Source: Nostoc spongiaeforme FACHB-130 (GTDB lineage: Bacteria > Cyanobacteriota > Cyanobacteriia > Cyanobacteriales > Nostocaceae). From it: a stretch of 64,000 bases of DNA. Shown here piece by piece: positions 990-44,715 of this stretch. The notes beneath the pieces are model-generated. The model was not told where the DNA came from. It saw only the letters and a program-made list of their open reading frames with translations, and ran no database searches. The stretch is from the NCBI RefSeq assembly GCF_014698475.1, contig NZ_JACJTB010000020.1:1-64000 (forward strand), in the 5' to 3' direction. The first letter of the stretch is position 1, and each line of letters opens with the position of its first letter. Position numbers and translations under genes: made by a program.

Positions 990-1100
990 AAAAGCGTAGC
1001 CGTAAGGCTTGTCGTCAGACATCGCATTCTTCAAAACCAAAGTGGGATAACTTCGTTAAGCTACGCGATCGCACTTCTCAAAACTACCAAAATGCGATCG
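990..1100. repeat. Palindromic dispersed element (R1, about 70 bp, termini GCGTAGC...GCTACGC) followed by an R2 copy; R1 recurs at 2738-2822 and in degenerate form at 2845-2878
   Basis: Sequence comparison: GCGTAGCCGTAAGGCTTGTCGTCAGACATCGCA is identical at 995-1027 and 2738-2770. The copies end with inverted termini and contain an internal TGTCgtcaGACA palindrome. Confidence 0.65.
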
Positions 1101-14580: not shown

Positions 14581-15159
14581 ATGAATGCCTTAACCTTACA
14601 ATTACCTCCCCATCTCAAATTTACAGATGAAGAATTTGAACAGATTGTTGCTGTTAATAAAGAGTTGCGATTGGAATTAACTGTTGAAGGAGAATTAGTA
14701 ATCATGTCACCCACTGGGGGAGAAACAGGAAGTCGTAATTTTGATTTGTTAGGTCAACTATGGTTTTGGAATAGTCAAAATAATTTAGGAAAAGCATTTG
14801 ATTCTTCCACTGGTTTTAGACTTCCTAATGGTGCAACTCGTTCTCCTGATGCTGCTTGGGTGAGAATAGAAAGATGGAACTCTCTCACGCCAGAACAAAG
14901 AAAAAAATTCCTACCTTTGTGTCCTGATTTTGCGGTGGAATTAGTTTCAGAAACTGATGACGTGGCAGAAACTCAAGCCAAAATGGAGGAATATTTAGCT
15001 TCAGGTTTATTACTTGGTTGGTTAATTAATCCTAAAGACAAACAAGTAATAATTTATCGCCCTCATCAAGCACCTGAAGTTTTACAATCGCCTACAAGTT
15101 TATCTGGTGAAGATATTCTTCCTGGTTTCGTTTTAAACTTGCAGCAGATTTTTGCATAA
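14581..15159 (+). CDS. Uma2-family (DUF820) putative endonuclease
   Basis: 192 aa sharing the pattern EF...V....ELRLELT.EGEL.IMSPTGGE.G..N..L...L..W......G.AFDS..GF.LPNG..RSPDA.WV with the ORFs at 43418 and 44107. Confidence 0.8.
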   Translation: MNALTLQLPPHLKFTDEEFEQIVAVNKELRLELTVEGELVIMSPTGGETGSRNFDLLGQLWFWNSQNNLGKAFDSSTGFRLPNGATRSPDAAWVRIERWNSLTPEQRKKFLPLCPDFAVELVSETDDVAETQAKMEEYLASGLLLGWLINPKDKQVIIYRPHQAPEVLQSPTSLSGEDILPGFVLNLQQIFA

Positions 15160-15165
15160 GTAAAT

Positions 15166-16392
15166 CTACTCCCGATTCTTTTTCATAATTTGCCAACATT
15201 GTTGTGCGATCGCCCAATCTTCTTGAGTATGTATAACTAACACTCGCACTGTAGAATCAGGTGTGGCGATATCTTGATCAACAGGTCGATTTTGATTTTT
15301 TTCGGGGTCAATTTTCACGCCCAAAAATCCAAAGGCTTCGCAGACTGCTTGGCGAATACCTGACGAATTTTCCCCGATACCTGCGGTAAATAACAATACA
15401 TCCAATCCGCCCAGACTAGCCAGCATCGCCCCAATTCCAGACCGCAGGCGATGGACGTACATATCCCAAGCGAGTTGGGCGCGTTCATTCCCTTGGGCGA
15501 TCGCTTCGATCACTTGGGGTAAGTCGCTGGATATTCCCGAAATTCCCCGTAAACCGGAAGCTTTATTTAATACATAATCTAAACTTTCGGACGAGTAATT
15601 AGATTGGCGCATTAGGTAAATTAAAATCCCTGGGTCAATGGAACCGCAACGACTCCCCATCATTAAACCGTCTAAAGGTGTGAAACCCATTGTGGTATCA
15701 ATACTGCGACCATTTTTAATCGCTGCTAACGAACAACCATTACCCAAGTGACAACTAATAATTCGCAACGATGCTAAATCTCGACCGAGAATTTGCGCCG
15801 CCCGTTCAGAACAATATTGATGGCTGATACCATGAAATCCATAGCGGCGAATACCTTGTTCTACCCATTCATAAGGGCCGGGATAAATCGCCGCCGCATC
15901 CGGGAGGGTGGAATGAAACCCTGTATCAAATACTGCCACTTGGGTAACTTCGCCTAAACTTTTCTCGATGGCTTCGATGCCTTCTAATGCGGCGGGGTTG
16001 TGTGCTGGGGCGAGATTAGAGAGACGAGCGATCGCATCTTTTACCTCTTCAGTAATCACCACACTATGGCGGTAGTCTTGCCCACCATGAACTACACGAT
16101 GTCCCACCACATCAATTTCTGACACTTCATTGACTACTTTAGTCGCACCACGGCTGAGGGTATAAAGCATATAAGCTATATGTGCTTGACGAGAGTCACC
16201 ATAAATAGATTCATGCAAAGTTTCACCGGATGCTGTTTTCACCTCAATTTCTGCCGCACCTTGGTCTTGAGTCCAGTTGACTTTGCCTTCCCACAGGGGT
16301 TTGGGTGCTGATTGGGGTAAAGCATCATCAACTATTTCATACAGACAGCTTTTTTGACTGCTGGAACCAGCATTTAGTACTAGGATTTTCAT
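15166..16392 (-). CDS. ackA: Acetate kinase
   Basis: Translation from the internal Met (MKILVLNAGSSS...) gives a canonical ~409-aa acetate kinase. The longer ORF to 16518 is an in-frame upstream extension whose sequence is duplicated elsewhere (see findings). Confidence 0.9.
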   Translation of the reverse strand: MKILVLNAGSSSQKSCLYEIVDDALPQSAPKPLWEGKVNWTQDQGAAEIEVKTASGETLHESIYGDSRQAHIAYMLYTLSRGATKVVNEVSEIDVVGHRVVHGGQDYRHSVVITEEVKDAIARLSNLAPAHNPAALEGIEAIEKSLGEVTQVAVFDTGFHSTLPDAAAIYPGPYEWVEQGIRRYGFHGISHQYCSERAAQILGRDLASLRIISCHLGNGCSLAAIKNGRSIDTTMGFTPLDGLMMGSRCGSIDPGILIYLMRQSNYSSESLDYVLNKASGLRGISGISSDLPQVIEAIAQGNERAQLAWDMYVHRLRSGIGAMLASLGGLDVLLFTAGIGENSSGIRQAVCEAFGFLGVKIDPEKNQNRPVDQDIATPDSTVRVLVIHTQEDWAIAQQCWQIMKKNRE

Positions 16393-16589
16393 AAATTTGA
16401 CCCGTTCTTGACAACACTGGAAAATTTGTTTTGAAGGTGCTGTTAAAGGATGATCGTTAATATGCTCTGGTAAAGGAAATTGATTGCGTTGATTGCGATC
16501 GCCTTGAGGATTCTTCAACCTGCTAAAAGTGGTGGCGAACTAGAAAATTATGCCATTTTGAGCTATTGATAAACCAAATTGAGTCAAAC

Positions 16590-16665
16590 AATTTTGGATT
16601 TTAGATTTGCGATTTTAGATTCAATCCAAAATCCAAAATCCAAAATCTAAAATTCGGAGGGTCAA
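16590..16665. repeat. STRR-like heptanucleotide tandem repeats (CCAAAAT)n with an inverted ATTTTGG/ATTTTAG arm
   Basis: Read directly: ...attttggattttagatttgcgattttagattcaatccaaaatccaaaatccaaaatctaaaattc... Confidence 0.8.
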
Positions 16666-16777
16666 ATTTAGTCGCAAAAGCAAAGTTTTTTGAGAAATGC
16701 AATAGACTTTCATCTAATGTTAATCGAGATGTTTTTTGCTTTATTCTAAGCATCGTTTTACAAAAAAATAAATCTAT

Positions 16778-18355
16778 ATGCTTAGACGAGCGCCCTTATA
16801 TTTTTTTTTAGGAATATTAACGAGTTCTAGCTGTTTCATCTTCAGTGTATCAGCCCAAGTCCCATCTACATCTAATTCGCAGCAGTCCTCAACTCGGAGT
16901 GAAGCTCAAGCTGCTAGTTGGTTTGAAGCCCATCGCTCCCAGCCAGCAGCTTTACGAGCATTTGTACAGCGAATGCCCAAGGGAGGAGATATTCACAGTC
17001 ATCTAAGTGGGGCTGTGTACGCAGAACATTATCTGGAGTGGGGTGCAACCGATGGGTATTGTGTGAATCCACAAGCGGGGACTTTAGTTGAACCCAAGGC
17101 TTGTAATCAGGACAGTAGCTATTTTCCCGCTTCCGAATTGTTCAACCGAACATCTGTTTATGACTCCCTGATAAATCGTTGGTCTACTCGTAACCTGCAA
17201 TTTGCTGGAAAATCTGGACATGACCAATTTTTTGAGGCTTTTGCTGGATTTGGGACAATATCAGATTCTGCCACCCGTCGGGATGATATGGTCGCATCAG
17301 TAGCAAATCGGGCAGCTTCCCAGCATATTACCTATCTAGAGTTAATGCTGACTGTTCAGGGGAGTGAGGTTCGACAGTTAGGGCGGGACGTGGGTTGGAA
17401 TCAAGACTTCAAAGAGATGCACGAGCAATTGCTCAAACGGGGATTAACTCAGCTAGTGACACTCGGCAGTCAGCAATTAATACAGTTGGAGAGTGAAGTT
17501 GCGAAAACCCTTGGTTGCGGCACTCCAGCAGCACAGCCTGGATGTACAGTCACGGTACGCTATTTGCAGCAAACTACCAGAACAAAATCACCTGTGGAAG
17601 TATTTGCTCAGTTAGCTTATGCTTTTGCACTGGCTTCATCCTCCAAGCAGGTAGTTGGGATCAATCTCGTCGCCCCAGAGGATCACCCGATCGCACTGCG
17701 TGACTACACTCTGCAAATGCAGATGCTACAATTTCTCAAACGCCAATATCCCAATGTTAAAATTTCACTTCATGCTGGAGAGTTAACTTTGGGGTTAGTT
17801 CCAACTGAGCATTTACGTTTTCATATTCGGCAAGCTGTAGAAGTAGCACAGGCATCTCGCATTGGACATGGTGTAGATATTCTGTTTGAAGAGCGTCCTT
17901 TTGAGTTGATGAAGCAAATGCAGCAACGCGGCGTGTTGGTGGAAATTTGCCTGACTAGTAATGAAGTCATTTTGAATGTCCAGGGAAATCAACATCCTTT
18001 TATGGAGTATTGGAAAGCTGGAGTCCCAATGACTCTTGCTTCCGATGATGAAGGCATTTCCCGCATCGATTTGAGTCATGAATATATGTTAGCCGCAACA
18101 AGATATGGGCTGGCATATAAAGACCTCAAGCGACTGGCTCGCAATAGCTTAGAATATAGTTTCGCACCCGGAAATAGTCTCTGGAAGTCGCCTGAATTTA
18201 AGGCAATGGTTCCAGCTTGTGCCAGCGATAGTCCTGGTGATACCTCTGTTTCTTCAGGATGCAGTGCTTTTTTGCAAAAGAGCGATCGCGCAAGAATACA
18301 ATGGCAACTAGAGTCGGAATTTACTCGGTTTGAGTCTTTGCAAAACTGGCTTTGA
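16778..18355 (+). CDS. Adenosine/AMP deaminase-family metallohydrolase with an N-terminal signal peptide
   Basis: 525 aa with the motifs IHSHLSG, SLHAGE and TLASDDEG, which match the adenosine deaminase fold metal/catalytic motifs. The N-terminus is hydrophobic. Confidence 0.7.
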   Translation: MLRRAPLYFFLGILTSSSCFIFSVSAQVPSTSNSQQSSTRSEAQAASWFEAHRSQPAALRAFVQRMPKGGDIHSHLSGAVYAEHYLEWGATDGYCVNPQAGTLVEPKACNQDSSYFPASELFNRTSVYDSLINRWSTRNLQFAGKSGHDQFFEAFAGFGTISDSATRRDDMVASVANRAASQHITYLELMLTVQGSEVRQLGRDVGWNQDFKEMHEQLLKRGLTQLVTLGSQQLIQLESEVAKTLGCGTPAAQPGCTVTVRYLQQTTRTKSPVEVFAQLAYAFALASSSKQVVGINLVAPEDHPIALRDYTLQMQMLQFLKRQYPNVKISLHAGELTLGLVPTEHLRFHIRQAVEVAQASRIGHGVDILFEERPFELMKQMQQRGVLVEICLTSNEVILNVQGNQHPFMEYWKAGVPMTLASDDEGISRIDLSHEYMLAATRYGLAYKDLKRLARNSLEYSFAPGNSLWKSPEFKAMVPACASDSPGDTSVSSGCSAFLQKSDRARIQWQLESEFTRFESLQNWL

Positions 18356-18382
18356 TCATGGAATCTAAATTATAGTAGTCTG
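18356..18382. repeat. Left 27-bp direct repeat ATCATGGAATCTAAATTATAGTAGTCT bounding the ATPase/DUF4276 cassette (partner at 20268-20294, 24/27 identical)
   Basis: Read directly from the sequence. Confidence 0.85.
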
Positions 18383-18415
18383 GCTGTGAAATTGTCCTAA
18401 CATCTCTGACTACCG

Positions 18416-19093
18416 CTATATGTTTTCTAGATTTAGTAACCATTGGTGAAAATGCTGGCATTGTTGGCGGATTGTATCTAGTCCAATCTCAATAGCCAGC
18501 AACGAACCATGCAGTACTTTGTCGTATTCTTGACAACACTTGAGAATTCTTTTTGAGGGAGCGGTTAACGGATGATCGTTAATGTGTTCTGGTGAAATAA
18601 ATTGATTGCGATCGCCTTGTAAAATACTAACTACACTAGCATCAAACCACTCAGCAAATACTTGTGGCTGGCTGTACAGCAGTGCCTCAAATTCATGAAC
18701 TAACAAATTAGGGATGAAATTTGTGTGACCGATATCCTGACCCATCTTTTGTTCTAAATATTCAACTTTTTGGAATGGGTCACTAGTATTTGGCAAAGAA
18801 TCCCTTCCGGGAAAATCATTCGGTAAGCGGTACAAATCAAACATTGTGGTCACGAAAGCTGTTTTATCTTCACGGCACTTACGGTCTAATTGTGGCTTAA
18901 TTTTGGCGTAACTTACCACACCTCCTTTGCCTATAGAACTTGTTCTGACCAAAATCGGGTTCAGGAAGATGTCTTTTTCTTGAAAATACTCGTAGAGTAC
19001 TTCTTTCACGAACGTTTCCTCAGTTTGACCTTCAACGAAAACATGGACTCGAATCATCGTGAAGGTCTCCCACCCAGGAGGTTCTTCTTCCAC
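18416..19093 (-). CDS. DUF4276-like small protein with a Toprim-like N-terminal motif (VHVFVEGQTEE); putative nuclease partner of the adjacent ATPase
   Basis: 225 aa. The N-terminal V.VFVEGQTEE motif resembles the conserved-glutamate Toprim/OLD-type motif. It overlaps the upstream ATPase gene by 40 bp. The C-terminal ~35 aa are encoded by a segment duplicated upstream of ackA. Confidence 0.6.
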   Translation of the reverse strand: MEEEPPGWETFTMIRVHVFVEGQTEETFVKEVLYEYFQEKDIFLNPILVRTSSIGKGGVVSYAKIKPQLDRKCREDKTAFVTTMFDLYRLPNDFPGRDSLPNTSDPFQKVEYLEQKMGQDIGHTNFIPNLLVHEFEALLYSQPQVFAEWFDASVVSILQGDRNQFISPEHINDHPLTAPSKRILKCCQEYDKVLHGSLLAIEIGLDTIRQQCQHFHQWLLNLENI

Positions 19094-20160
19094 AATTCGC
19101 CTAAACTATATTCTTCTAGCCATTCCTCTAACTCCTCCTCATCCAACCTGCGTAGTAATGATTTTCCCTGCAAGCGGTCAACAACAATTACATCTGCAAC
19201 ATCAAATTCGTTGAGTAATTCCACAGACTGGGTAGAAACAATCACTTGCTTAGGGACAGTTTTTATTAAGGATGCCAAAATCTTGATGGCATAAGGATGG
19301 AGACCTAATTCCGGCTCATCAACTAAAATTGTTTCTGGTTGAAGTTCTTCCGGCTGCAAAAAAACCGTTGCTAAACAGATAAAACGCAACGTTCCATCAG
19401 AAAGGAAATGTGCTTTGAAGGGAATATCCTGTCCTTTCTCGAACCATTCCAGTTCAATAGATTCCTCGTTTTGTGGCGAAGGACGCAGGAGAAAGTCACC
19501 AAAGAACGGCGCAACAAGCCTGATGGTTTTAACGATTTTCTGATAAGATTTCTGATAATTCTCACGCAACAGATACAAAAAAGCTGCCAGATTACGCGCA
19601 TCAGGACGCAAGTAAACATTGTCATTGATACCATGCGGCTGTTTTACATAAGCACTATCACTGGTGTCATGAAAATGATAAACTCGCCACTGCCGCATCG
19701 TAGGTAAAACGTACTTATCAATTTGAGTCCCTGTACCTCTAGAGGCCTTTGTCTCGAAATGACCTTTACCTATTTCACGCTTACCACTCCTGTTCCACCA
19801 GGAAGACTCAGCAGCGAACATTAGGCGATTATCCTGAGTTGGTTCTAAAGTAGCGAAGTAGCCGTTATTGCCAAAATATAATTGAAATTCTAGTTGTTCT
19901 GTAGTTTTACGACCAAAGTACAATAAAGCATCAGGGCCACCTTGACGGCTAACAAAAACCTGTAGGTTCTGTTCTAGCAGCTGCTGAACCATACGGAAGA
20001 AGCCGATAAAATTGGATTTTCCCGCCCCATTAGCCCCAATTAAAATATTCACCCTGGAGAGTTCAAGGTCACACTCAGCGATAGACTTGAAGCCTTTCAA
20101 AACTATTCTCGACAGTTGTTTGTAACTGCGCGCCTCTGTCATGAACAGTCTCCCAGTCAA
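19054..20160 (-). CDS. ABC-type (SMC/OLD-like, AAA_21/AAA_15-class) ATPase
   Basis: 368 aa with Walker A GANGAGKSN, an ABC signature-like LSDGTLRF, Walker B ILVDEPELGLHP, and a possible D-loop. Confidence 0.8.
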   Translation of the reverse strand: MTGRLFMTEARSYKQLSRIVLKGFKSIAECDLELSRVNILIGANGAGKSNFIGFFRMVQQLLEQNLQVFVSRQGGPDALLYFGRKTTEQLEFQLYFGNNGYFATLEPTQDNRLMFAAESSWWNRSGKREIGKGHFETKASRGTGTQIDKYVLPTMRQWRVYHFHDTSDSAYVKQPHGINDNVYLRPDARNLAAFLYLLRENYQKSYQKIVKTIRLVAPFFGDFLLRPSPQNEESIELEWFEKGQDIPFKAHFLSDGTLRFICLATVFLQPEELQPETILVDEPELGLHPYAIKILASLIKTVPKQVIVSTQSVELLNEFDVADVIVVDRLQGKSLLRRLDEEELEEWLEEYSLGELWKKNLLGGRPSR

Positions 20161-20210: not shown

Positions 20211-20268
20211 TTAATCCCACATTCCGCCTTCTCCTTTGTTAATTGGAGATCCAGAATGTGGGATTTAA
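20211..20268. repeat. Stem-loop (14-bp arms TTAATCCCACATTC / GAATGTGGGATTAA, about 29-nt loop) abutting the right 27-bp direct repeat
   Basis: Read directly. It lies between the convergent ATPase and tal genes. Confidence 0.7.
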
Positions 20269-20294
20269 TCATGGAATCTAAATCCTAGTAGTTT
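20268..20294. repeat. Right 27-bp direct repeat ATCATGGAATCTAAATCCTAGTAGTTT
   Basis: Read directly. Confidence 0.85.
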
Positions 20295-43417: not shown

Positions 43418-44071
43418 TTGGGTCTGGTAGAAGTTGCGATCGCAGATAATAAAATTAATCTGATGGGCAAAATACCGATGGAACCTCTCACCCTCAACAT
43501 ACCACCAGCAGTAGGTTTGACAGACGAGCAGTTTTATCAAATATGTCTAGCCAATGATGAATGGCGCATCGAACTCACTGCCGAAGGAGAATTAATTATT
43601 ATGCCACCAACTGGCGGCGAAAGCGGTATTAGAAATTCAGACATTAACATAGAACTTGGTTTATGGAATCGTCAAACCAAGCTAGGAAAAGTGTTTGACT
43701 CTTCTACAGAATTTCGCTTACCCAATGGTGCATATCGTTCGCCGGATGTTTCTTGGGTGAAGCAAGAACGCTGGGATGCACTGACACCTGAACAAAAACG
43801 TCGCTTTCCACCCATTTGCCCTGATTTTGTGATTGAACTGCGTTCTCAAACTGATTCTCTCAAAAAATTGCGAGATAAGATGCTGGAGTATCGAGATAAT
43901 GGTGCGCGTTTGGGTTGGTTGATTGATCCGTTCACACCTTTAGTAGAAATTTATCGCCCTGGTATTGCAGTGGAAGTGATTAATTTTTCTGTTGAACAAC
44001 CACCTACATTGTCTGGTGAAGATGTCTTACCTGGGTTTGTTTTGTTGTTAACTACAATCCTCAATCCTTGA
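43418..44071 (+). CDS. Uma2-family (DUF820) putative endonuclease, tandem copy 1
   Basis: 217 aa with the Uma2 pattern. It is near-identical to the next gene. Confidence 0.8.
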   Translation: MGLVEVAIADNKINLMGKIPMEPLTLNIPPAVGLTDEQFYQICLANDEWRIELTAEGELIIMPPTGGESGIRNSDINIELGLWNRQTKLGKVFDSSTEFRLPNGAYRSPDVSWVKQERWDALTPEQKRRFPPICPDFVIELRSQTDSLKKLRDKMLEYRDNGARLGWLIDPFTPLVEIYRPGIAVEVINFSVEQPPTLSGEDVLPGFVLLLTTILNP

Positions 44072-44106: not shown

Positions 44107-44715
44107 ATGGGCAAAATACCGATGGAACCTCTCACTCTCAACATACCACCCGCAGTAGGTTTGACAGACGAGCAGTTTTATCAAATATGTCTAGCCAATG
44201 ATGAATGGCGCATCGAACTGACTGCCGAAGGAGAATTAATCATTATGCCACCAACTGGCGGCGAAAGCGGTATTAGAAATTCAGGGTTGACAGCTAAACT
44301 TTACATTTGGAATGAACAAGCAAATCTGGGAAAAGTGTTTGACTCTTCTACAGAATTTCGCTTACCCAATGGTGCGTATCGTTCGCCGGATGTTTCTTGG
44401 GTGAAGCAAGAACGCTGGGATGCACTGACACTTGAACAAAAACGCCGCTTTCCGCCCATTTGCCCTGATTTTGTGATTGAACTGCGTTTTCAAACTGATT
44501 CTCTCAAAAAATTGCGGGATAAGATGCTGGAGTATCGAGATAATGGTGCGCGTTTAGGTTGGTTGATTGATCCGTTCACACCTTTAGTAGAAATTTATCG
44601 CCCTGGTGTGGAGGTGGAAGTGATCAATTTCGCTGTTGAACAACCACCTACATTGTCTGGTGAAGATGTATTGCCAGGATTTATCTTATCTTTAACTACA
44701 ATACTTAATCCTTGA
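44107..44715 (+). CDS. Uma2-family (DUF820) putative endonuclease, tandem copy 2
   Basis: 202 aa, more than 90% identical to copy 1 at the protein level and with near-identical upstream sequence. Confidence 0.8.
   Translation: MGKIPMEPLTLNIPPAVGLTDEQFYQICLANDEWRIELTAEGELIIMPPTGGESGIRNSGLTAKLYIWNEQANLGKVFDSSTEFRLPNGAYRSPDVSWVKQERWDALTLEQKRRFPPICPDFVIELRFQTDSLKKLRDKMLEYRDNGARLGWLIDPFTPLVEIYRPGVEVEVINFAVEQPPTLSGEDVLPGFILSLTTILNP

What the first reader, a model, noticed from the sequence alone, without database searches (positions are those of the whole stretch)
16393..16518. A ~110-bp segment immediately upstream of the ackA start codon is a diverged copy of the 3' coding end of the DUF4276-like gene (18516-18625)
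Both copies translate in the same frame on the minus strand: QGDRNQ(RNQ)FPLPEHINDHPLTAPSKQIFQCCQE upstream of ackA versus QGDRNQFISPEHINDHPLTAPSKRILKCCQE at the C-terminus of the DUF4276-like protein. They differ at 12 of 93 nt and by one 9-nt tandem duplication, with more synonymous (7) than non-synonymous (5) codon changes. This suggests the segment diverged while it was coding.

There are three possible readings. A second copy of the cassette once sat upstream of ackA and was deleted, leaving its 3' end as the ackA leader. Alternatively, the deaminase gene region (16520-18520) is bounded by a ~110-bp direct repeat and is itself an insertion. Or ackA has a real N-terminal extension. Homology ends close to the ackA ATG.
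Basis: seen in the sequence. Interest (0 to 1): 0.6.

Follow-up and report, generated by a model that had tools for sequence, protein, structure and literature searches.

The report
Defence-gene snippet patched into ackA leader
About 90 bases of a neighbouring candidate phage-defence gene were copied into the untranslated leader of the acetate kinase gene, starting at a shared 13-base match built around the cyanobacterial HIP1 palindrome; this is a small scar of DNA repair or recombination, not a gene remnant, an insertion boundary or a longer enzyme.

Summary
Window 16405-16506 (-) is a diverged copy of 18527-18619 (-), an internal stretch of the DUF4276/HEC-01B gene (blastn E 2.6e-21). There are only two copies in the window.

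The window matches Nostoc spongiaeforme FACHB-130. Six related genomes resolve the origin:
- In every genome with deaminase next to ackA, the spacer is homologous up to GGCGATCGCA (HIP1) and again from GGTCAAATTTATG.
- Between those points, N. piscinale CENA21 (no DUF4276 gene), PCC 7107, Aulosira FACHB-615 and FACHB-87 carry a different leader. I infer this one is ancestral.
- Only the window and N. cycadae carry the DUF4276 piece, with the same 9-nt duplication.

The gene itself contains the same 13-mer, CAAGGCGATCGCA, exactly where the copy starts. The segment is therefore a derived ectopic patch of about 89 nt in the ackA leader.

- Genomes with cassette plus deaminase lack the repeat.
- The flanks of the patch are conserved leader sequence.
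- The ackA frame upstream has stops in all other-leader relatives.

The excess of synonymous changes sits mainly on the branch shared by both fragments. This fits a slightly different coding donor allele. The event is ordinary in kind. The HIP1-anchored junction is the only mildly notable point.

The parts
16405..16493 (-). DUF4276-derived patch in the ackA leader: 89 nt that have no counterpart in the leaders of Aulosira FACHB-615, FACHB-87, PCC 7107 or N. piscinale
   Evidence: Alignments; blastn; polarised site table
16494..16506 (-). Left anchor, the 13-mer CAAGGCGATCGCA (HIP1 at 16495-16502). It belongs to the conserved deaminase-ackA spacer in all five genomes and is identical to the start of the donor tract
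   Evidence: only two copies in 64 kb, 0 expected; HIP1 positions
16480..16497 (-). 9-nt tandem duplication (CGCAATCAA x2) at the start of the patch, shared with N. cycadae and absent from all resident DUF4276 genes
16390..16402 (-). GGTCAAATTTATG: ackA start codon plus about 10 nt of its own proximal upstream sequence, retained through the event. The 2 nt at 16403-16404 cannot be assigned to either side
   Evidence: conserved in other-leader genomes and, as GGTAAAAGTAATG, in Fortiea-type genomes
18527..18619 (-). Donor-type tract inside the resident DUF4276/HEC-01B gene (residues 147-177 of the 213-aa protein), beginning with the same 13-mer (HIP1 at 18608-18615)
18416..19057 (-). Resident DUF4276 / PADLOC HEC-01B gene (213 aa from the ATG). 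The protein is 100% identical to the Nostoc spongiaeforme FACHB-130 entry
   Evidence: Pfam E 1.3e-59; PADLOC HEC-01B E 3.5e-87
19054..20142 (-). AAA_21 ABC-type ATPase, PADLOC HEC-01A, partner of the DUF4276 gene
   Evidence: HEC-01A E 4.2e-155
16778..18355 (+). Adenosine-deaminase-family gene lying between donor and patch; transcribed divergently from ackA
   Evidence: PF00962 E 3.3e-29; conserved ~523-aa cyanobacterial family
16507..16777 (.). Deaminase-ackA spacer upstream of the patch. It is conserved in relatives, apart from a polymorphic hairpin element at about 16589-16660
   Evidence: 1 mismatch in 284 nt vs Aulosira; 6 in 206 vs N. cycadae
15166..16392 (-). ackA (408 aa, from ATG 16392), exact match to WP_190968651.1

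Best explanation
The segment is a derived ectopic copy of about 89 nt of DUF4276 (HEC-01B) coding DNA. It replaced the variable middle part of the ackA 5' leader in a Nostoc lineage.

The older leader, as inferred, ran from a HIP1-containing sequence (..CTCAAGGCGATCGCA) through about 75-150 nt that include an ACTCAGC heptamer tract, and ended in GGTCAAA(T/G)TTATG. The DUF4276 gene, about 2.1 kb upstream and in the same orientation, contains the identical 13-mer CAAGGCGATCGCA.

Inferred mechanism: a break or stalled fork in the leader was repaired by pairing at this 13-mer. About 80 nt of the gene, or of a slightly different allele of it, was copied with a 9-nt slippage at the start. The copied end then rejoined just upstream of the ackA ribosome-binding region.

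The result is non-coding leader DNA. It happens to keep the donor's open frame, and that frame is in phase with ackA. The patch is probably neutral. It has persisted long enough for its two known copies to differ at 8 of 93 sites. It now segregates as one of two leader alleles that short-tract recombination shuffles among close relatives.

Shown: the boundaries, that it is the derived state, the shared anchor, and the absence of the patch from most relatives. Inferred: the repair mechanism, the neutrality and the donor allele.
For: Synteny
- Many Nostocales have pk-tal-ackA.
- One clade has the deaminase between tal and ackA: N. piscinale CENA21 without the cassette; Aulosira FACHB-615, FACHB-87, N. 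cycadae and the window with HEC-01; PCC 7107 with a degraded cassette.

Boundaries
- In all these genomes the spacer aligns up to GGCGATCGCA and again from GGTCAAA.TTATG.
- Between those points, four genomes share one leader type. Only the window and N. cycadae have the DUF4276 piece.

Anchor
- The 13-mer occurs only twice in the window, 0 expected. Both copies overlap HIP1.
- It occurs 4 times outside this locus in the 1.6 Mb searched.
- Genomes without the patch still have it at both sites.

Single origin
- The window and N. cycadae fragments share the 9-nt duplication, the junctions and 4 derived substitutions.

Donor lineage
- The inferred ancestral fragment peptide is closest to the local HEC-01B clade. 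It keeps the family-consensus Pro that the resident genes have lost.

Not an extension
- The ackA frame upstream has stops in all other-leader genomes.
- HMM boundaries and the NCBI annotation give 408 aa.

Recombination
- The window flanks are nearly identical to Aulosira: 1 mismatch in 284 nt of spacer, and the first 212 nt of ackA identical. ackA is mosaic further downstream.

Precedent
- HIP1 has been linked to site-specific and illegitimate recombination (PMC4390886).
- HIP1 has also been reported to raise recombination efficiency in transformation (bioRxiv 10.1101/2024.09.10.611283).
Against: - The donor is not identical to any resident gene seen. Four substitutions on the shared fragment branch, 3 of them synonymous (P = 0.011), imply a different donor allele or some period under coding constraint.
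- Over all 12 fragment-lineage changes, 8 are synonymous (P = 0.003). Continued translation is therefore not formally excluded.
- Polarity rests on 4 versus 2 genomes and on one genome without the cassette. The distribution does not follow the tree of the flanks, so at least one recombination event must be assumed.
- The right junction has no clear microhomology (2 ambiguous nt).
- HIP1 occurs about once per 1.1 kb. Only this one of roughly a dozen structural breakpoints in the locus lies on a HIP1 site, so no general role for HIP1 is shown.
- No transcription start or expression data are available. The promoter scan, the RNA fold and Rfam gave nothing.
Confidence: 0.72

Rival explanations
1. 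Duplication then deletion. Unequal crossing-over between the two 13-mers made a 2.1-kb tandem duplication (DUF4276 3' part, deaminase, spacer). A later illegitimate deletion removed everything from just after CAAGAA to the end of the old leader. Only the first ~89 nt of the duplicated gene part were left. The end product is the same as a one-step templated patch.
For: It has the same left junction at the shared 13-mer and uses the same-orientation donor 2.1 kb upstream. It explains why the copy starts exactly at the anchor. Tandem duplications between short repeats are common in bacteria (established knowledge).
Against: It needs two events. The second must end precisely so that the ackA -12 region is kept. 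No genome sampled shows the intermediate. It does not explain why the fragment differs from the resident genes by mostly synonymous changes.
Confidence: 0.15
2. The DUF-type leader is the older state in the cassette-bearing lineages, and the other leader was re-imported from cassette-free relatives. In that case the patch could be the last remnant of a larger decayed structure, close to the reader's 'relic of a second copy'.
For: The distribution of the two leader types does not follow the flanks. The window is closest to Aulosira, yet shares the patch with the more distant N. cycadae. The two patch copies differ at 8 of 93 sites, so the allele is old.
Against: The other leader is present in four genomes spanning the clade, including one with no DUF4276 gene. 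Both flanks of the patch are ordinary conserved leader sequence. The left boundary falls exactly on a 13-mer shared with the gene, which a decayed remnant would not predict.
Confidence: 0.07
3. AckA in this strain has a genuine 42-residue N-terminal extension, or a translated upstream ORF, started at TTG 16518 and recruited from DUF4276 coding sequence.
For: The frame is open and in phase with ackA in both the window and N. cycadae. One gene caller called a 449-aa AckA in N. cycadae. The 9-nt duplication is in frame. 8 of 12 fragment-lineage substitutions are synonymous (P = 0.003).
Against: - The post-formation changes alone are not significant: 5 of 8 synonymous, P = 0.07.
- Those changes include S->L, R->Q and L->F in the window copy.
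- There is no ATG or GTG, only a TTG directly abutting AGCAGG.
- All other-leader relatives have stops.
- The HMMs begin at residue 41-44.
- An open frame is expected by chance: the simulated probability of no stop after 12 random changes is 0.58, and one frame in three is in phase.
Confidence: 0.04
4. The ~100-nt direct repeats are the boundaries of an inserted element carrying the deaminase gene, in the manner of the duplicated gene end left by an integrating island.
For: Direct repeats in the same orientation bracket the deaminase gene, with one of them inside an intact gene.
Against: Four relatives have the deaminase at the same place without the repeat. The only ORF with a Pfam family between the repeats is the deaminase, and no integrase or transposase was found. 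The repeat is not the gene's true 3' end. The deaminase is a conserved cyanobacterial gene.
Confidence: 0.02

Closest known systems
Ectopic gene conversion, or templated 'filler' insertion during break repair (microhomology-mediated template switching, SDSA/MMBIR-type events)
   Same: A short tract was copied from a nearby non-allelic donor, and the donor is unchanged. The recipient flanks are intact. One junction lies at a short shared sequence (13 nt). There is a small slippage duplication at the entry point.
   Different: The mechanism is inferred from sequence only. The second junction has no clear microhomology. The donor allele differs from the present resident gene by 4 substitutions on the branch shared by both fragments. 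The event is old and is known from only two genomes.
HIP1-associated recombination in cyanobacteria. PMC4390886 summarises Akiyama 1998 (site-specific plasmid recombination in PCC 7002) and Robinson 1997 (HIP1-promoted excision). bioRxiv 10.1101/2024.09.10.611283 reports a Chi-like boost of recombination.
   Same: The junction of a natural rearrangement falls on GCGATCGC, which is present at both partner sites.
   Different: Here HIP1 is embedded in a longer 13-nt identity, so plain microhomology is enough to explain the junction. This is a copy-in event, not an excision. It is a single case. Other breakpoints in the locus are not at HIP1.
Duplicated gene 3' ends at the borders of integrated genomic islands (tRNA/tmRNA-type att sites)
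   Same: There is an intact gene at one side, and a diverged partial copy of it in direct orientation about 2 kb away.
   Different: There is no integrase. The copy is internal to the gene, not its 3' end. Relatives have the intervening gene without the repeat.
Decayed defence-gene remnants, such as the 76-aa HEC-01A fragment left in Nostoc sp. PCC 7107
   Same: A non-functional piece of a HEC-01 gene lying in an intergenic region of the same locus.
   Different: The PCC 7107 fragment sits where the gene was. The ackA-leader piece is at a second site that never held the gene, according to the conserved flanks.

Membership tests
Functional DUF4276 / HEC-01B gene (for the fragment at 16405-16506) | Covers the whole DUF4276 domain (192 profile positions), with its own start and stop | tested here: not met
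   Only residues 159-194 of the 225-aa ORF are matched. There is no start codon of its own, and the piece runs into ackA.
HEC-01 candidate defence system (for the resident genes 18416-20142) | Adjacent ABC-type ATPase (HEC-01A) and TOPRIM-like DUF4276 protein (HEC-01B) | tested here: met
   PADLOC HEC-01A E 4.2e-155 and HEC-01B E 3.5e-87, with overlapping genes on one strand. Pfam AAA_21 and DUF4276.
HEC-01 candidate defence system (for the resident genes) | Protects against phage | not testable with these tools
   The describing preprint found no protection by HEC-01 in its assays (bioRxiv 10.1101/2024.01.29.577857).
Ectopic gene conversion / templated patch | Recipient flanks are collinear with an allele that lacks the tract | tested here: met
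   The spacer up to GGCGATCGCA, and GGTCAAATTTATG plus ackA, align with Aulosira, FACHB-87, PCC 7107 and N. piscinale, which carry a different middle segment.
Ectopic gene conversion / templated patch | An intact donor of the same sequence lies elsewhere in the genome | tested here: met
   18527-18619 lies inside the intact DUF4276 gene. Identity to the window fragment is 80 of 93 nt, and 86 of 93 nt to the N. cycadae fragment.
Ectopic gene conversion / templated patch | Sequence identity or microhomology between donor and recipient at the junctions | tested here: inconclusive
   The left junction is a 13-nt identity that is unique in the window. At the right junction only 2 nt are ambiguous, followed by weak similarity (G.CAAA.T..TG).
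Island att-type duplication of a gene end | Integrase or recombinase present, and the island plus repeat absent together in relatives | tested here: not met
   The deaminase is the only ORF between the repeats with a Pfam family. Relatives have the deaminase without the repeat.
Dispersed repeat / MITE | Many copies per genome | tested here: not met
   Two copies in 64 kb. The junction motif is found only in the window and in N. cycadae among 93 sequences totalling 1.6 Mb. Whole genomes were not searched.
N-terminally extended acetate kinase | The extension is conserved in orthologues and has a credible start | tested here: not met
   There are stops in the ackA frame in Aulosira, FACHB-87, PCC 7107, N. 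piscinale and Fortiea. The models start at residue 41-44. Only a TTG is available as a start.

The most novel reading that the evidence does not exclude
The junction is not just microhomology. HIP1 (GCGATCGC) itself would act as an entry point for strand invasion or template switching in cyanobacteria. On this reading, short ectopic patches that begin at HIP1 sites are a regular product of break repair in these polyploid genomes. This locus would then be a natural footprint of the Chi-like activity recently suggested from transformation experiments.
Probability: 0.12. Interest if true: 0.6.

Novelty: new member of a known kind. Interest (0 to 1): 0.27.

Why it matters
For annotation, it settles three points:
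- ackA starts at ATG 16392 (408 aa).
- The upstream DUF4276-like peptide is a non-coding scar.
- The deaminase gene is not a mobile insertion bounded by the repeat.

For genome evolution, it is a cleanly bounded natural example of a short coding tract copied into a neighbouring gene's leader. Both the older and the derived alleles are still present in close relatives.

One junction lies on a HIP1-containing 13-mer. The function of HIP1 is a long-standing open question, and a link to recombination has been proposed (PMC4390886; PMC5861425; bioRxiv 10.1101/2024.09.10.611283). A single case proves nothing. It does define a search image, namely short intragenomic copies that begin at HIP1, and that image could be tested genome-wide.

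The locus also shows how ackA became separated from the xfp-gap-pk-tal cluster. A defence cassette and an oppositely oriented gene now lie between them, and ackA has a young, fast-changing leader.

Tried and rejected
- **Exact-protein look-ups.** The window's DUF4276 (225-aa ORF), deaminase and AckA found nothing. The strain was identified later through the 213-aa DUF4276 hit and the AckA cluster.
- **Extension peptide search.** Searching the 65-aa extension peptide against the protein database gave no hit at E <= 0.001 and used the last search.
- **Metagenome scans.** Two DNA-pattern scans, one on the spacer and one on the ackA start, found nothing. No further leader alleles were obtained that way.
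- **Functional RNA element.** The promoter/terminator scan was no better than shuffles. The RNA fold of the leader had z = +1.0. Rfam gave only sub-threshold miRNA-like hits on the hairpin element. I dropped a structured-RNA reading.
- **Island model.** I tested whether the resident gene's 3' part is foreign and the fragment is the displaced original. The resident copy is closer to Fortiea than the fragment is, and the gene is collinear with Fortiea to its end. Rejected.
- **Deaminase as part of the defence system.** It is a conserved ~523-aa cyanobacterial family with variable neighbours. Rejected.
- **Other leader as a copy of something else.** Apart from heptamer repeats, a 23-nt dispersed piece and a ~20-nt match in L007, it has no other copy in the window or the fetched loci.
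- **HIP1 at other breakpoints.** Only the patch junction lies on a HIP1 site. The sample is too small for a statistical claim.
- **Upstream ORF in the other leader.** The ORF MKVGLVFL.. that I read in the other-type leader sequences (alignment) is not kept in frame between N. piscinale and PCC 7107. I did not pursue it.

Full report
**What is in the sequence**

On the minus strand, ackA starts at ATG 16392-16390 and ends at 15166. Pfam Acetate_kinase and TIGR00016 align from residue 41-44 of the longer ORF that begins at TTG 16518.

Upstream lie three further genes:
- an adenosine-deaminase-family gene on the plus strand (16778-18355);
- a DUF4276 gene (18416-19057, 213 aa from the ATG);
- an AAA_21 ATPase gene (19054-20142).

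PADLOC identifies the last two as HEC-01B (E 3.5e-87) and HEC-01A (E 4.2e-155). HEC-01 is a candidate ABC-ATPase/TOPRIM-like pair for which no phage protection was found when it was described (bioRxiv 10.1101/2024.01.29.577857).

Further upstream are tal, pk, gap and xfp, all on the minus strand. ackA therefore sits at the end of a phosphoketolase-pathway cluster. The functional link between phosphoketolase and acetate kinase is noted in PMC5862535.

**Check of the observation**

The segment 16405-16488 matches 18527-18610 at 84.5% (blastn E 2.6e-21). The DUF4276 protein matches 16506-16390 by tblastn (E 2.8e-12). There is no third copy in the window.

With the 18-nt identical head (16489-16506 = 18602-18619) and one 9-nt tandem duplication, the tract is 102 nt in the leader against 93 nt in the gene. 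There are 13 differences, giving 6 synonymous and 5 non-synonymous codon differences.

Two corrections matter. The gene copy is internal, with about 36 codons following it. The last 12-13 nt before the ackA ATG are not part of the copy.

**Which genome, and which relatives**

The DUF4276 protein is 100% identical to the entry from Nostoc spongiaeforme FACHB-130. The 408-aa AckA is an exact match to WP_190968651.1 of that strain.

A scan of species-representative genomes with AckA showed that many Nostocales have pk-tal-ackA. Only Fortiea sp. LEGE XX443 (L001) also had the HEC-01 pair, and it had neither the deaminase nor a fragment.

Closer relatives were reached through protein clusters:

| Genome | Locus | Arrangement |
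|---|---|---|
| N. cycadae WK-1 | L085 | pk-tal-HEC01A-HEC01B-(deaminase, reversed)-ackA |
| Nostoc sp. PCC 7107 | L088 | a 76-aa ATPase fragment and a SUKH-family gene in place of the cassette, then deaminase-ackA |
| Aulosira sp. FACHB-615 | L090 | cassette-deaminase-ackA |
| Nostoc sp. FACHB-87 | L092 | cassette-deaminase-ackA |
| N. piscinale CENA21 | L091 | tal-deaminase-ackA, no cassette |

**The key alignment**

In all these genomes the deaminase-ackA spacer is homologous from the deaminase start to ..CTCAAGGCGATCGCA. It is homologous again from GGTCAAA(T/G)TTATG into ackA.

Between these points, PCC 7107, N. piscinale, Aulosira and FACHB-87 share one leader type. It reads TTAAC..ACTTATTTCATAAGCCAA.CATGAAAGT.., followed by an ACTCAGC heptamer tract. 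Aulosira and FACHB-87 carry two extra insertions.

The window and N. cycadae have the DUF4276 piece there instead. A pattern search over the window and all 92 fetched loci finds the DUF-ackA junction only in the window and in N. cycadae.

The other leader occurs in four genomes across the clade, including one that has no DUF4276 gene. I take it as the older state and the DUF piece as derived.

**The junctions**

The spacer sequence just before the patch and the start of the gene tract are the same 13-mer, CAAGGCGATCGCA. It occurs only at these two places in 64 kb, with 0 expected. It occurs 4 times outside this locus in the 1.6 Mb searched. Genomes without the patch still carry it at both sites.

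The 13-mer contains HIP1, GCGATCGC. HIP1 occurs 58 times in the window against 0.33 expected.

The right junction lies after CAAGAA (16405). Two nucleotides cannot be assigned to either side, and then ackA's own proximal sequence follows. That sequence is recognisable even in Fortiea-type genomes, as GGTAAAAGTAATG.

**Age and donor**

The window and N. cycadae fragments share the duplication, both junctions and four substitutions that are absent from all five resident genes compared. This points to a single origin.

The two fragments differ from each other at 8 of 93 sites. That is similar to the divergence of the two genomes in ackA, which is 89% identical.

The inferred ancestral fragment peptide (QGDRNQFPSPEHINDHPLTAPSKRILQCCQE) is nearest to the window's own HEC-01B. 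It keeps the family-consensus Pro where the resident genes now have Ile or Leu.

**Test of "diverged while coding"**

I polarised the changes using the resident genes and tested them against a neutral model:

| Set of changes | Synonymous | P under neutrality |
|---|---|---|
| Branch shared by both fragments (all transversions) | 3 of 4 | 0.011 |
| After the two fragments separated | 5 of 8 | 0.07 |
| All fragment-lineage changes | 8 of 12 | 0.003 |

The simplest reading is that the donor was a slightly different, functional allele of the gene. This is plausible because the cassette is itself mosaic. It is 97% identical between N. cycadae and Aulosira although their tal genes are only 90% identical. 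It is about 91% identical between the window and Aulosira although their flanks are 95-97% identical.

Continued translation of the fragment is not formally excluded, but it is unlikely:
- The window copy has S->L, R->Q and L->F changes in the most conserved motif.
- The only available start is a TTG.
- Every other-leader relative has stops 2-17 codons upstream of the ATG.
- An open, in-phase frame is not surprising. The simulated probability of no stop after 12 random changes is 0.58, and one frame in three is in phase.

**Incongruence between the leader and its flanks**

Around the patch the window is almost identical to Aulosira. There is 1 mismatch in 284 nt of spacer, and the first 212 nt of ackA are identical. 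N. cycadae already differs at ackA position 30.

Further into ackA, stretches with 0-3 and with 12-15 differences per 150 nt alternate. The two leader types therefore behave as alleles that short-tract recombination moves between lineages. Which lineage was the recipient cannot be told.

**Mechanism (inferred)**

The favoured mechanism is a one-step templated repair or template switch:
1. Pairing at the 13-mer.
2. Copying of about 80 nt, with a 9-nt slippage at the start.
3. Rejoining just before the ackA ribosome-binding region.

The replaced segment ended in a heptamer repeat tract, a plausible site of breakage or slippage.

A two-step alternative gives the same product. Unequal exchange at the 13-mers would make a 2.1-kb tandem duplication, and a deletion would follow. 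It cannot be excluded.

HIP1 has been linked to site-specific and illegitimate recombination (PMC4390886). It has also been reported to raise recombination efficiency during transformation (bioRxiv 10.1101/2024.09.10.611283). Here a 13-nt identity is enough to explain the junction, and no other structural breakpoint in the locus lies on HIP1. A specific role for HIP1 remains a hypothesis.

**Function**

No promoter, terminator, Rfam family or unusual fold was found in the leader. The segment between HIP1 and the -12 region is the most variable part of the spacer among relatives. The patch is therefore most likely neutral filler in the ackA 5' untranslated region. The transcription start is unknown.

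**Verdict**

The feature is an ordinary kind of event, an ectopic copy of a short tract. It is resolved here unusually cleanly, and the HIP1-anchored junction is a mildly interesting detail.

Noticed in passing
window 18348-18379 and 20261-20292: A 32-nt direct repeat (88% identical) brackets the HEC-01 cassette. N. piscinale CENA21, which lacks the cassette, has a single copy of this sequence followed by the hairpin between tal and the deaminase stop. The cassette therefore looks like an insertion into the convergent tal/deaminase intergenic region with a duplicated target.
   Followed up: partly
window 16589-16660: A roughly 72-nt palindromic element made of GATTTTG/CAAAATC-type heptamers is present in the window, Aulosira FACHB-615 and FACHB-87. 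It is cleanly absent from N. cycadae, PCC 7107 and N. piscinale. Similar elements occur at unrelated sites in other Nostocales loci (L004, L017, L025, L027, L029, L083). It behaves like a small mobile or unstable repeat.
   Followed up: partly
L088 7213-8014 (Nostoc sp. PCC 7107): At the same site the HEC-01 cassette is degraded to a 76-aa N-terminal ATPase fragment, followed by a SMI1/SUKH-family gene. This is an example of turnover of defence genes at this spot.
   Followed up: no
window 18416-20142 compared with L085, L090, L092: The HEC-01 cassette is a mosaic. In the 5' ~1 kb of the cassette (most of the ATPase gene), the window differs from N. cycadae/Aulosira by up to 22% per 200 nt. 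In the DUF4276 gene it differs by only 2-5%. The N. cycadae and Aulosira cassettes are 97% identical although their tal genes are 90% identical. This suggests exchange of cassette alleles between lineages.
   Followed up: partly
window 15166-16392 (ackA) compared with L090: Divergence from Aulosira FACHB-615 alternates between 0-3 and 12-15 differences per 150 nt. This is the pattern of frequent short-tract homologous recombination.
   Followed up: partly
window 16778-18355: The deaminase belongs to a conserved ~523-aa cyanobacterial family. About 235 N-terminal residues match no Pfam family. Its best PADLOC match is the deaminase part of CARF-ADA (E 6.5e-24). Its neighbours vary between genomes: it lies next to an acetyl-CoA synthetase gene in Nostoc sp. 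DSM 114160 and next to ackA here.
   Followed up: partly
L001 9423-9991 and the ~170 nt upstream of ackA in L002-L004, L007, L009, L010: Genomes without the deaminase share a conserved ~170-nt ackA upstream region that is entirely missing from the window clade. ackA therefore acquired a new upstream region when the deaminase came to lie next to it.
   Followed up: partly
window 43418-44071, 44107-44715 and 14581-15159: There are three Uma2-family (putative restriction endonuclease-like) genes. Two are tandem and 92% identical to each other; the third lies directly downstream of ackA.
   Followed up: no
window 990-1074 and 2735-2821: An 87-nt direct repeat (83% identical) of unknown nature. A HIP1 site lies at the end of the 990-1074 copy (1065) and just upstream of the 2735-2821 copy (2708).
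   Followed up: no
L091 9945-10003 and L088 9950-10010: Read by eye from the alignment, the other-type ackA leader contains a short ORF (MKVGLVFL..) whose first codons resemble the start of ackA. In N. piscinale its stop overlaps the ackA ATG. It is out of frame in PCC 7107 because of a 7-nt repeat-number difference, so it is probably not functional.
   Followed up: partly
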